Below, in pieces: positions 1,684 through 1,752 of a stretch of DNA of 5,673 nt. Source of the stretch: a virus (taxonomy: Duplodnaviria; Heunggongvirae; Uroviricota; Caudoviricetes); the IMG/VR virus record IMGVR_UViG_2541047120_000010; one strand, written 5' to 3'. The number at the start of each line of letters is the position of its first letter. The stretch's first letter is position 1. The position numbers and the translations under genes are program-made. The notes under the pieces were generated by a model. It was not told the origin of the DNA, made no database searches, and saw only the letters and a list, made by a program, of their open reading frames with translations.

Positions 1684-1723
1684 TGAGAGTGGATCTTGAA
1701 CGGAAATTCTCAAGACTTGAGTC

Positions 1724-1752
1724 TTGCATGCAAATCAATTCCTGGATAAACT
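1724..1752 (+). promoter_or_regulatory. Candidate sigma70 promoter for the 173-aa ORF, overlapping two palindromes
   Basis: TTGCAT (1724-1729), 17-nt spacer, TAAACT (1747-1752); alternative -10 GATAAA (1745-1750) with upstream TG. The -35 lies inside the perfect 10-bp palindrome TTGCATGCAA (1724-1733), and the 13-bp palindrome CTCAAGACTTGAG (1709-1721) is immediately upstream. Placed between the 1658-1683 terminator and the ORF start at 1785. Confidence 0.35.

What the first reader, a model, noticed from the sequence alone, without database searches (positions are those of the whole stretch)
1702..1752. Two perfect palindromes overlapping the candidate promoter of the 173-aa ORF
CTCAAGACTTGAG (1709-1721, 13-bp odd palindrome) and TTGCATGCAA (1724-1733, 10-bp perfect palindrome covering the proposed -35) sit within a wider imperfect dyad (GGAAATT 1702-1708 versus AATTCC 1736-1741). 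These do not resemble the ATACAA-type sites proposed for the phage repressor. That suggests the cargo gene is controlled by a different dimeric regulator, host or self, and not by CI.
Basis: seen in the sequence. Interest (0 to 1): 0.35.

Follow-up and report, generated by a model that had tools for sequence, protein, structure and literature searches.

The report
Moron promoter with mostly incidental palindromes
The two palindromes lie on the private promoter of ECs1184, a Shiga-toxin-phage gene of unknown function; one is a lineage-specific accident and the other overlaps a short conserved element beside the -35 box that may bind an unidentified regulator, so the finding is mostly ordinary.

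Summary
The window is the immunity region of a VT2-Sakai/Sp5-type Stx phage. The 173-aa ORF is ECs1184. Both palindromes exist as described; only the outer AATTCC is off by one (1737-1742). They do not exceed chance: 9 perfect palindromes in the window against 11.6 in shuffles.

TTGCATGCAA is perfect only in this lineage and lies over the most variable part of the spacer, so it is an accident. The 13-mer is also perfect only here. What is conserved is an offset dyad, AAGACT-N1-2-AGTCTT (1712-1725), whose right arm runs into the -35. It keeps at least 5 of 6 pairs in 13 of 15 lineages.

No CI operator, CII, LexA, CRP, FNR or RcsB match was found, and no stable hairpin. The cassette travels with unrelated cI alleles, so CI-independence is supported.

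Whether the conserved dyad binds a regulator, self or host, is untested. The "two operators" reading is not supported.

Side finding: promoters of this gene family are strongly GATC-enriched, and a distant clade carries a covarying 13-bp inverted repeat over its -35.

The parts
1654..1684 (+). Intrinsic terminator that ends the cI-(DUF3024 pseudogene) transcript and forms the left boundary of the mobile cassette
   Evidence: RNA fold gives -15.9 kcal/mol, z = -4.6, 0 of 200 shuffles as good, followed by a T-run. The consensus scan misses it here but calls the homologous hairpin in Proteus and Cronobacter. It is conserved upstream of the gene in almost all relatives, with the U.G pair changed to C-G in some. 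Homology to phage Oslo starts at 1657.
1709..1721 (.).
   Evidence: Present. It has 6 of 6 pairs only in the window lineage and 2-5 of 6 in 14 other lineages.
1712..1725 (.). Conserved dyad B, AAGACT-tg-AGTCTT (7-bp arms if 1711 and 1726 are included). Centre about -40.5; the right arm overlaps the -35.
   Evidence: At least 5 of 6 pairs in 13 of 15 lineages, with 1- or 2-nt centres. It is flanked by variable sequence. It is the only copy in the window and in the whole phage.
1724..1729 (+). -35 hexamer TTGCAT
   Evidence: CTTG at 1723-1726 is invariant in 14 aligned orthologous upstream regions. One IMG/VR variant (L015) has TTACAT.
1724..1733 (.).
   Evidence: Perfect only in the window lineage and 0-3 of 5 pairs elsewhere. 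Columns 1730-1736 are the least conserved part of the promoter, with majority fraction 0.51.
1737..1746 (+). Conserved distal spacer block AATTCCTGGA.
   Evidence: Majority fraction 0.77; CTGG is about 93% conserved. Its supposed partner GGAAATT (1702-1708) is not conserved.
1747..1752 (+). -10 hexamer TAAACT (TAGAAT in Proteus, Cronobacter and Yersinia)
   Evidence: Conserved position and sequence across the family, as TAnACT or TAGAAT. Only 7 of 12 matches to consensus here, so the scan does not call it; the Proteus orthologue has 9 of 12 and is called.
1753..1756 (.). GATC (Dam site) between the -10 and the predicted start (about 1759)
   Evidence: Conserved in 12 of 14 aligned orthologues. 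It is part of a family-wide GATC enrichment at these promoters.
1773..1781 (+). Shine-Dalgarno-like GAGAGAGAG
   Evidence: Read from the sequence. TTAGAGAGA is conserved in orthologues.
1785..2306 (+). 173-aa ORF, equal to ECs1184 / H0093 / ORF23 of Sp5. It has an N-terminal four-helix domain, an acidic disordered linker and a small C-terminal beta-hairpin-plus-helix domain.
   Evidence: PHROG 2602, function unknown. AF2 model with pLDDT about 90 for residues 20-95. Sub-threshold integrase SAM-like signals.
2608..2636 (+). Terminator at the right end of the cassette
   Evidence: Homology to phage Oslo ends at about 2638.

Best explanation
Positions 1702-1752 are the core sigma-70 promoter of an autonomous, CI-independent 'moron' cassette. 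The cassette runs: terminator 1654-1684, promoter, ECs1184, small ORF, terminator about 2608-2636. It sits between cI and OL/PL of an Sp5-type Stx phage.

RNA polymerase would use -35 TTGCAT (1724-1729), a 17-nt spacer and -10 TAAACT (1747-1752), starting near 1759.

The 10-bp palindrome is an accident: it is the -35 hexamer plus four bases of the freely evolving spacer. The 13-bp palindrome is a lineage-specific sharpening of a truly conserved element, AAGACT-N1-2-AGTCTT (1712-1725). The right arm of that element is the tcTTG of the extended -35. Its left arm lies at -46 to -41, where an alpha-CTD or a class-II-type factor would touch the DNA.

Shown: the sequences, the chance level, the conservation pattern, the lack of CI, CII or LexA sites, the lack of a hairpin, and the mobility of the cassette.

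Inferred: promoter activity, the start site, and that the conserved left arm is a protein contact. My preferred candidate is a dimeric factor encoded by the cassette itself, acting as an autoregulator. Second is a host factor common to Enterobacterales.
For: Context: the segment is 100% identical to VT2-Sakai, Nil2 and the Stx1 phage across 1284-2660. Annotation gives cI, H0093, H0092, OL/PL and N, and the ORF is ECs1184.

Terminator: a strong, conserved terminator lies directly upstream, so the gene needs its own promoter.

Promoter: anchored alignments of orthologous upstream regions from Escherichia, Salmonella, Cronobacter, Yersinia, Proteus, Morganella, Serratia and metagenomes show TTGnnn-17-TAnA(C/A)T at one fixed position. 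They show conservation islands at -35 plus the 13 nt upstream, and at -10 plus ATTCCTGG. The proximal spacer and the far upstream are variable. The Proteus orthologue is called by the consensus scan as TTGCAA-17-TAGAAT.

Palindromes: the dyad table is. Palindrome counts equal chance.

Structure: there is no single-strand structure, with z between -0.6 and +0.4. There is no Rfam family.

CI independence: the CI-operator PWM is negative, and neighbouring cI alleles are unrelated. The cassette is also found after a Q-like antiterminator, in an AlpA-DUF3024 island and next to dinI.
Against: - The promoter is weak by consensus (7 of 12), and the scan tool does not call it in the window.
- No start-site data could be found.
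- Conservation of the left arm could reflect shared descent or an alpha-CTD/UP-like contact, not a specific factor.
- Half-site spacing differs by 1 bp between sub-lineages, which is awkward for a rigid dimer.
- The dyad is not statistically exceptional on its own (P = 0.12).
- Only one candidate compensatory event supports symmetry (C1711/G1719 against T/A).
Confidence: 0.6

Rival explanations
1. One reading: both perfect palindromes, within a wider GGAAATT/AATTCC dyad, are operators for a dimeric regulator other than CI. That regulator would sit on the -35 and just upstream and would control the cargo gene.
For: Both palindromes are perfect and adjacent on the promoter. The local, post-hoc P value is 0.01-0.04. 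Neither matches CI operators.
Against: - The palindrome count is at chance for the window.
- The 10-mer's second half lies in the least conserved promoter segment and is destroyed in the closest diverged orthologues that keep an intact gene: Oslo, L007/8 and L085/86 have 2-3 of 5 pairs.
- GGAAATT is not conserved.
- The 13-mer has 2-5 of 6 pairs elsewhere.
- There are no further copies in the phage.
Confidence: 0.07
2. Autoregulation. ECs1184 itself binds the conserved dyad AAGACT-N-AGTCTT as a dimer and represses or tunes its own promoter by occluding the -35. ECs1184 has an N-terminal integrase-core-binding-like helical domain and a small C-terminal domain that could dimerise.
For: - The site travels with the gene through unrelated phage backbones and cI alleles.
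- It is unique in the phage.
- Protein clades that diverge carry different repeats at the same place. Serratia (54% identical) has AGTCTT-tct-AGTCTT. L040 has ATTCATGGA twice. Clade B (41-46%) has a 13-bp inverted repeat over the -35 with covarying arms: 4 pairs changed on both sides, score 0.256 against 0.098, 0 of 500 shuffles.
- The 40%-identical homologue in the E. coli O157 phage SH2026Stx1 occupies the same cI-DUF3024-x-N slot but has AACGATCGTT instead. That argues against one shared host factor.
- There are weak but repeated DNA-binding-domain signals: Pfam Phage_int_SAM_1 in 5 of 16 members, best E = 3.6e-4; Foldseek hits to integrase N-domains 2kiw, 5j0n_G and 3nrw; one JGI 'XerD' label.
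- Deletion of ECs1184 from an Sp5 lysogen could not be obtained (PMC5155283), which fits a regulator.
Against: - All domain hits are below curated thresholds. No PDB or BFVD match has E < 0.001.
- There is no evidence that the protein binds DNA. It was only marginal in an RNA-binding screen (PMC7618764).
- Site and protein change together, but this is correlation along one tree.
- The 1-bp spacing difference in the dyad remains awkward.
Confidence: 0.2
3. A host factor site. A regulator common to Enterobacterales binds the dyad centred near -40.5, the position of a class II activator, and helps the weak promoter, or else represses it.
For: - The promoter has a weak -35 (3 of 6) and 7 of 12 matches overall.
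- The dyad centre at about -40.5 to -41.5 is the class II position (from the sequence).
- The element is conserved across seven enterobacterial genera.
Against: - No match better than chance to the LexA, CRP, FNR, RcsB, Cra, PurR, CytR, IHF, OxyR, Fur, ArcA, TyrR, MetJ or NarL consensus sequences. These were recalled from memory and then tested; the best was FNR-like with 2 mismatches inside the spacer, matched by 16 of 300 shuffles, without correction for 15 motifs.
- The SH2026Stx1 homologue in the same host species lacks the element.
- Orthologues with a good promoter (9 of 12) keep the element as well.
Confidence: 0.13
4. A methylation-sensitive promoter. Dam methylation or SeqA binding at GATC (1753-1756, between the -10 and +1, and 1692-1695 upstream) modulates the promoter. 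On this reading the palindromes are bystanders.
For: - GATC is enriched about 5.6-fold in the 110 nt upstream of the gene across 20 clade representatives: 39 observed against 6.9 expected from the same loci, Poisson P about 4e-17 (also 58 against 12.2).
- The sites usually come as pairs 19-32 bp apart over the -35 and -10.
- The GATC at -6 to -3 is conserved in 12 of 14 close orthologues.
- Sp5 encodes its own DNA methylase, ECs1196.
Against: - The representatives are not fully independent.
- In the window's clade only one GATC lies in the core promoter, inside a generally conserved 5' leader, so its conservation is not specific.
- There is no experimental link.
- GATC could instead be part of the recognition sequence of the family's own protein.
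Confidence: 0.12
5. A nucleic-acid structure: a hairpin or cruciform in DNA, or a hairpin in a read-through RNA, formed by the palindromes.
For: Inverted repeats are present. In clade B, several arm mismatches are G.T.
Against: - Folding of 1695-1745 on either strand, as DNA or RNA, is no better than shuffles: -3.8 to -9.4 kcal/mol, z between -0.6 and +0.4.
- The loops would be only 1-4 nt.
- A strong terminator lies upstream, so little read-through RNA should reach the region.
- There is no Rfam hit.
Confidence: 0.03

Closest known systems
Phage 'morons': autonomous promoter-gene-terminator cassettes in lambdoid phages (for example lambda bor/lom and the HK97 morons described by Juhala/Hendrix). 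Named from my own knowledge.
   Same: A self-contained unit flanked by terminators, with its own sigma-70 promoter. It is inserted between conserved phage genes and found in unrelated backbones.
   Different: Here an upstream insulating terminator is part of the conserved unit. The gene has been reported as undeletable in the lysogen (PMC5155283), which is unusual for a dispensable moron.
Lambda rexA-rexB (pRM/pLit, tImm), HK022 nun and P22 sieB: lysogen-expressed genes in the cI-N interval. Named from my own knowledge.
   Same: The same genomic slot between the repressor gene and OL/PL. Expression in the prophage state is expected. ECs1184 protein was detected in Sakai cultures (PMC7618764).
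   Different: Lambda rex is co-transcribed with cI from pRM. Here a strong terminator separates cI (plus a DUF3024 pseudogene) from the gene. The protein family is unrelated.
Lambdoid CI/Cro operators (OR1-3, OL1-3)
   Same: Short dyads that overlap promoter hexamers.
   Different: The PWM from the six annotated 17-bp sites of this phage gives no hit in 1680-1775. The cassette occurs with unrelated cI alleles.
Class II activator sites (CRP/FNR type, centred at -41.5) and RcsB boxes just upstream of the -35
   Same: The position of the conserved dyad centre (about -40.5) and its overlap with the -35. The half-sites are AAGA...TCTT-like.
   Different: The sequence does not match CRP, FNR or RcsB (TAAGAAT-ATTCTTA has a 4-nt gap between AAGA and TCTT; here the gap is 5-6 nt).
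Dam/GATC-sensitive promoters (IS10 pIN, P1 cre, agn43 and P22 gtr with OxyR). Named from my own knowledge.
   Same: GATC within the core promoter, and family-wide clustering of GATC.
   Different: There is no OxyR-like site. In this window only one core GATC is present. No functional data exist.

Membership tests
Sigma-70 promoter | -35 and -10 hexamers close to TTGACA/TATAAT, separated by 16-18 nt | tested here: inconclusive
   TTGCAT-17-TAAACT gives 7 of 12 matches, below the scan threshold. The homologous Proteus site TTGCAA-17-TAGAAT has 9 of 12 and is called.
Sigma-70 promoter | Positional conservation of both hexamers in orthologues while flanks diverge | tested here: met
   CTTG of the -35 and A-11/A-9 of the -10 are invariant, the spacer length is fixed at 17, and the proximal spacer is variable.
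Sigma-70 promoter | A mapped transcription start about 7 nt downstream of the -10 | not testable with these tools
   No start-site table for this locus could be retrieved.
Palindromic operator of a dimeric regulator | Dyad symmetry beyond chance | tested here: not met
   9 palindromes against 11.6 expected. An adjacent pair occurs in 16% of shuffles. The best inverted repeat has P = 0.12.
Palindromic operator of a dimeric regulator | Symmetry maintained in orthologues | tested here: inconclusive
   The 10-mer fails (0-3 of 5 pairs). The 13-mer is weak (2-5 of 6). The offset dyad AAGACT-N-AGTCTT passes (at least 5 of 6 in 13 of 15 lineages), but with variable 1-2-nt centres and only one candidate compensatory event.
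Palindromic operator of a dimeric regulator | A cognate binding protein | not testable with these tools
   This needs EMSA, footprinting or ChIP.
Lambdoid CI/Cro operator | A 17-bp site matching the phage's own OR/OL consensus | tested here: not met
   The best PWM score in 1680-1775 is 0.0, against 13.3-19.3 for the six annotated operators.
CII-activated promoter | TTGC-N6-TTGC straddling the -35 | tested here: not met
   Read from the sequence. TTGC occurs at 1724-1727 only. The tetramers 10 nt upstream (GACT) and 10 nt downstream (ATCA) do not match. The annotated CII site of this phage is TTGC-N6-TTGT at window 134-147.
LexA (SOS) box | CTGT-N8-ACAG | tested here: not met
   The best match in 1690-1765 has 4 mismatches, and all shuffles do as well. 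A LexA-like box is present upstream in relatives only.
Intrinsic terminator or structured RNA | A stable hairpin better than shuffles, or an Rfam match | tested here: not met
   z between -0.6 and +0.4 for 1695-1745 on both strands. No Rfam hit.
Phage moron cassette | Flanking terminators and presence as a unit in unrelated backbones | tested here: met
   Terminators lie at 1654-1684 and 2608-2636. The Oslo homology block is 1657-2638. The cassette is found beside different cI alleles and in non-immunity contexts.
Phage moron cassette | Expression from its own promoter in the lysogen | not testable with these tools
   The only indirect evidence is that the protein was detected in Sakai cultures (PMC7618764).
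Tyrosine-recombinase N-terminal SAM-like (core-binding) domain, for ECs1184 | A Pfam PF02899/PF13102 match above the gathering score, or a confident fold match | tested here: inconclusive
   E = 0.047 for the window protein. 5 of 16 family members hit, best E = 3.6e-4, all below 22.3 bits. Foldseek probability is at most 0.66 and E > 0.1. The profile search against PDB sequences finds nothing significant.

The most novel reading that the evidence does not exclude
ECs1184-family proteins are a new class of small, self-regulating DNA-binding factors. They have an integrase-core-binding-like N-domain and a dimerising C-domain, and they are carried on an insulated cassette in the cI-N slot of lambdoid prophages.

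They would bind fast-evolving dyads over their own -35 box: AAGACT-N-AGTCTT here, and GATC-containing 13-bp inverted repeats in other clades. This binding might depend on Dam methylation.

They would act as a CI-independent second circuit needed to keep the Stx prophage quiescent, which would explain why ECs1184 could not be deleted.
Probability: 0.12. Interest if true: 0.65.

Novelty: new member of a known kind. Interest (0 to 1): 0.27.

Why it matters
ECs1184 is one of only two early Sp5 genes that could not be deleted from a lysogen. The authors proposed that it is needed for stable lysogeny of the main Stx2 phage of E. coli O157:H7 Sakai (PMC5155283). Knowing that it sits on an insulated, CI-independent promoter, and which nucleotides are conserved, tells experimenters what to mutate. 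The targets are AAGACT 1712-1717, the hexamers, and GATC 1753-1756; the eye-catching TTGCATGCAA is not one of them. If the conserved dyad proves to be an autoregulatory or methylation-sensitive operator, it would define a second regulatory circuit beside CI/Cro in Stx prophages, with possible relevance to toxin-phage induction. As flagged, however, the two palindromes are mostly an ordinary promoter feature plus chance.

Tried and rejected
1. The generic repeat finder on 1600-1800 reported nothing. The arms are too short for its extension rules, so palindromes were enumerated by script instead.
2. E. coli genomes gave 232 genomes with the region, nearly all at least 99% identical, so they are useless for footprinting. 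Other genera were used instead.
3. The hairpin/cruciform reading was rejected by folding.
4. A known RNA family was rejected. The only Rfam hit is a sub-threshold GadY-like match on the downstream terminator, at E = 0.44.
5. CI, CII and LexA sites were rejected (and the sequence).
6. RcsB box and CytR octamer resemblances, recalled from memory, were tested. The spacing is wrong and the matches are no better than shuffles.
7. An FNR-like half-match at 1725-1738 lies inside the spacer, is not conserved outside the E. coli/Salmonella sub-lineage, and is not significant after multiple testing.
8. A divergent promoter using the palindromic -35 on the minus strand was rejected: no acceptable -10 (AGAATT or GAATTT, 2 of 6), read from the sequence. 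The 80-aa minus-strand ORF (ORF B57 in AP005153) is probably spurious.
9. A search for additional dyad copies, as a sign of a phage-wide regulon, found none in 61 kb.
10. Identification of ECs1184 by Pfam, PHROG, NCBIfam, PADLOC, PDB sequence profile, and Foldseek against PDB and BFVD gave only sub-threshold integrase-N-domain hints.
11. A literature search for start-site or expression data at this locus found none accessible.
12. The 57-aa basic protein encoded downstream in Proteus and clade B is not detectably related to the window's 40-aa ORF.
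Full report
CONTEXT. The window is the immunity and early-left region of a lambdoid Shiga-toxin phage. Positions 1284-2660 are 100% identical to VT2-Sakai (Sp5), Nil2, the Morioka Stx1 and Stx2-II phages and about 40 others. The whole window matches them at 99.5-99.7% over 81% of its length.

On the + strand the order is as follows:
- cII and cro on the minus strand, then OR;
- cI (627-1283);
- a degenerate DUF3024 gene;
- a terminator;
- the 173-aa ORF (1785-2306; H0093);
- a 40-aa ORF (H0092);
- a terminator;
- OL/PL, then N, cIII, kil, gam and bet.

In the Sakai chromosome the 173-aa ORF is ECs1184 and cI is ECs1185.

OBSERVATION. All quoted strings are present. CTCAAGACTTGAG is at 1709-1721, TTGCATGCAA at 1724-1733 and GGAAATT at 1702-1708. 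AATTCC is at 1737-1742, one base to the right of the stated position. It arises because AGACTTG and AGTCTTG are at once a tandem 7-mer and an inverted repeat.

CHANCE. Perfect palindromes with arms of 5 or more and a gap of at most 1 number 9 in the window, against 11.6 +/- 3.4 in 500 dinucleotide shuffles. Those with arms of 6 or more number 2, against 3.0. An adjacent pair that includes a 6-bp arm appears in 16% of shuffled windows. Only a post-hoc test limited to 1681-1784 gives P of 0.01-0.04. The best inverted repeat in the 120 nt before the ATG has P = 0.12. Taken alone, the sequence does not demand an explanation.

THE PROMOTER IS REAL BY COMPARISON.
- A stable hairpin followed by a T-run lies at 1654-1684 (-15.9 kcal/mol, z = -4.6). 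The consensus scan misses it here but calls its homologues in Proteus and Cronobacter.
- Homology to Salmonella phage Oslo (85% DNA identity) starts exactly at this hairpin (1657) and ends at the second terminator (about 2638). The unit terminator-promoter-gene-small ORF-terminator therefore moves as a cassette.
- I collected orthologous cassettes from Salmonella, Cronobacter, Yersinia, Proteus, Morganella, Providencia, Serratia and metagenomes. Their proteins are 83-33% identical to the window protein.
- Anchored on the -10, every one shows TTGnnn, 17 nt (18 in one clade), then TAnACT or TAGAAT at the same distance from the ATG.
- In the 14-sequence alignment, CTTG (1723-1726) and two A's of the -10 are invariant.
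- The majority fraction per segment is 0.83 for the -35, 0.86 for the -10, 0.77 for the distal spacer (AATTCCTGGA), 0.78 for the leader, and only 0.51 for the proximal spacer 1730-1736.
- The window promoter itself matches only 7 of 12 consensus positions and is not called by the scan. The Proteus orthologue, TTGCAA-17-TAGAAT, is called.

FATE OF EACH PALINDROME.
- TTGCATGCAA is the -35 plus the first four spacer bases. It is 5 of 5 only in the window lineage. Elsewhere it reads TTGCATATGA (Oslo and other Salmonella), TTGCATAGAA, TTGCGTACAG, TTGCGCGACG, TTGCTTAAAA, TTGCAAATCT and TTGACTTATT, with 0-3 of 5 pairs. All of these sit in front of intact 172-179-aa genes. It is a lineage-specific accident.
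- The wider dyad fails too. AATTCC belongs to the conserved distal-spacer block, while GGAAATT is replaced by unrelated sequence.
- The 13-mer (dyad A) is 6 of 6 only here. It is 5 of 6 in Oslo, Cronobacter and Yersinia, and 2-4 of 6 elsewhere.
- What is conserved is the offset dyad B, AAGACT-N1-2-AGTCTT (1712-1725). It has at least 5 of 6 pairs in 13 of 15 lineages and is lost in the two most distant ones (Serratia-type at 54% and L040 at 64% protein identity). Its flanks are variable.
- The right arm of dyad B is largely the tcTTG of the extended -35, so its conservation needs no extra explanation. The left arm, at -46 to -41, does.
- The centre is 2 nt in the E. coli/Salmonella sub-lineage and 1 nt in the others.
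- One possible compensatory event is visible (C1711...G1719 against T...A), but it is a single event on the tree.

WHAT IT IS NOT.
- It is not a hairpin. DNA and RNA folds of 1695-1745 on either strand are no better than shuffles, and there is no Rfam family.
- It is not a CI or Cro site. A PWM from the six annotated operators scores them 13.3-19.3, and its best score in 1680-1775 is 0.0.
- It is not CII-type: there is no TTGC-N6-TTGC (from the sequence).
- It does not match LexA, CRP, FNR, RcsB, CytR, IHF, OxyR, Fur and the others tested. The best matches are no better than shuffles once 15 motifs are considered.
- Neither dyad recurs in the window or in the 61-kb VT2-Sakai genome.

CI-INDEPENDENCE.
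- The same promoter sits next to cI proteins whose first 90 residues are 17-63% identical to the window's.
- Two Salmonella loci (L007, L008) have essentially the same cassette promoter but unrelated repressors.
- The cassette also occurs downstream of a Q-like antiterminator, in an AlpA-DUF3024 island and next to dinI.

WHO MIGHT BIND.
- ECs1184 has no family above threshold in Pfam, NCBIfam or PADLOC; it belongs to PHROG 2602, of unknown function.
- The AF2 model (mean pLDDT 70.5) shows a confident four-helix N-domain, a disordered acidic linker and a beta-hairpin-plus-helix C-domain.
- Sub-threshold but recurrent signals point to the N-terminal SAM-like core-binding domain of tyrosine recombinases (weak integrase hits in BFVD). 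The profile search against PDB sequences finds nothing significant. A DNA-binding role is plausible but not established.
- Literature: the gene could not be deleted from an Sp5 lysogen and was proposed to be needed for stable lysogeny (PMC5155283). It was marginal in an RNA-interactome screen and not a strong RNA binder (PMC7618764).

FAMILY-LEVEL CLUES.
- In a distant clade (41-46% protein identity, L045-L062) a 13-bp inverted repeat flanks an A-rich 14-15-nt centre, and its right arm covers the -35 (TTGATC). The arms covary: 4 pairs changed on both sides, covariation 0.256 against 0.098 in shuffles (0 of 500), and far above all slid controls.
- In the E. coli O157 phage SH2026Stx1, a 40%-identical homologue occupies the same cI-DUF3024-x-N slot. 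Its promoter is TTGATT-17-TAGTAT, with a different palindrome (AACGATCGTT) upstream.
- Different dyads with different protein clades, even in the same host species, fit self-recognition better than a single host factor. This is correlation only.
- Across 20 clade representatives, GATC is about 5.6-fold enriched in the 110 nt upstream: 39 observed against 6.9 expected (58 against 12.2). The sites are mostly pairs 19-32 bp apart over the -35 and -10.
- The window has GATC at 1753-1756, between the -10 and +1, and at 1692-1695.

MECHANISM I COMMIT TO. The region is the sigma-70 promoter of an insulated, CI-independent cassette. The 10-mer is chance. The 13-mer is a local perfection of a conserved -35-proximal element whose left arm (AAGACT) is most likely a protein contact. 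My confidence in this composite is about 0.6. For the identity of that contact my estimates are: autoregulation by ECs1184 about 0.2, a host factor about 0.13, and no specific factor (alpha-CTD contact or shared descent) for the remainder. Dam or SeqA sensitivity (about 0.12) is not exclusive of the others.

COMPARISON AND NOVELTY. The closest known kind is a lambdoid moron or lysogen-expressed gene in the cI-N slot, such as lambda rex, HK022 nun or P22 sieB. This one differs by the upstream insulating terminator and the unknown protein family. It is a new member of a known kind. Interest is low to moderate (0.27). It rests mainly on the reported undeletability of ECs1184 and on the family-wide GATC and inverted-repeat signature, not on the two palindromes as flagged.

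Noticed in passing
window 1290-1630: The stretch between cI and the terminator is a disrupted DUF3024 gene. tblastn with the intact 113-aa Proteus protein matches in two different frames (1313-1522 and 1477-1626), with an internal stop. The DNA is 81% identical to the intact DUF3024 gene region of 933W-type phages.
   Followed up: partly
L005 2354-2407; L009, L032, L084, L004, L088 and L011 upstream regions (absent from the window): In many orthologous cassettes, about 100 extra bp lie between the cI-distal terminator and the gene promoter. They hold a promoter-like TTGAC(G/A) overlapped by a conserved LexA-box-like CTG(A/G)(A/G)TTCAT(A/G)TACAG. In several loci a 7-bp-stem hairpin plus T7 follows (AACCCTCTGATGAGGGTTTTTTT). 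This could be an SOS-controlled tiny transcript or an attenuated second promoter. There is no Rfam match. The window, Oslo and the L007/8/85/86 lineage lack it.
   Followed up: partly
110 nt upstream of the gene in 20 clade representatives (window 1692-1695 and 1753-1756): GATC is enriched about 5.6-fold at the promoters of this gene family (39 observed against 6.9 expected). The sites are usually two, 19-32 bp apart, over the -35 and -10, and are often CGATCG or TGATCG within short inverted repeats. This suggests Dam/SeqA-sensitive control or a GATC-containing recognition site.
   Followed up: partly
L045 1410-1450 and the homologous positions in L046-L062: A distant clade of the gene family has a 13-bp inverted repeat (for example GGATTCATCGATC...GATCGATGAATCC) whose right arm covers the -35. 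The arms covary: 4 pairs changed on both sides, and 0 of 500 shuffles reach the score. This clade is not in a cI-N context.
   Followed up: partly
L095 2100-2190 (phage SH2026Stx1, NC_049919): A 40%-identical homologue of ECs1184 occupies the same cI-DUF3024-x-N slot in a 933W-immunity-type Stx1 phage of E. coli O157:H7. It has the same promoter architecture but a different palindrome (AACGATCGTT) and a GATC in the spacer.
   Followed up: partly
window 2656-2672 and 3380-3396: Two further sequences score close to true CI operators with the OR/OL PWM (12.0 and 11.9, against 13.3-19.3). One lies about 100 bp upstream of the annotated OL sites. The other is at the start of the ECs1180-like ORF (3366-3617), the second gene reported as undeletable.
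   Followed up: no
L015 (IMGVR_UViG_2663763028_000004), equivalent to window 1726: One otherwise identical contig carries TTACAT instead of TTGCAT. This changes the invariant G of the -35 and is a natural candidate promoter-down allele.
   Followed up: no
window about 3739-4761: The window differs from VT2-Sakai here, with only 81% of the window covered by the best phage matches. Instead of the 122-aa Ea10, it has a 322-340-aa ORF with a long E/A/K/R-rich, coiled-coil-like middle. Only chance-level family hits were found.
   Followed up: no
window 1654-1684 versus the annotation of AP000422: The VT2-Sakai record places the 'terminator for the pRM transcript' at the hairpin after H0092 (window 2608-2636). 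The stronger, conserved hairpin directly after the DUF3024 remnant is not annotated. If it works, H0093/H0092 are not part of the pRM operon.
   Followed up: partly
L004 3675-3848, L045 2169-2342, L053 about 2150-2336: A conserved 57-aa basic protein (…PAGFRWVKCRFRKARAKAGTPDSERK-LDAHAYGYKCWSFPVR…) follows the ECs1184 homologue in Proteus and in the distant clade. This suggests a two-gene module. The window's 40-aa ORF at the same place is not detectably related.
   Followed up: partly
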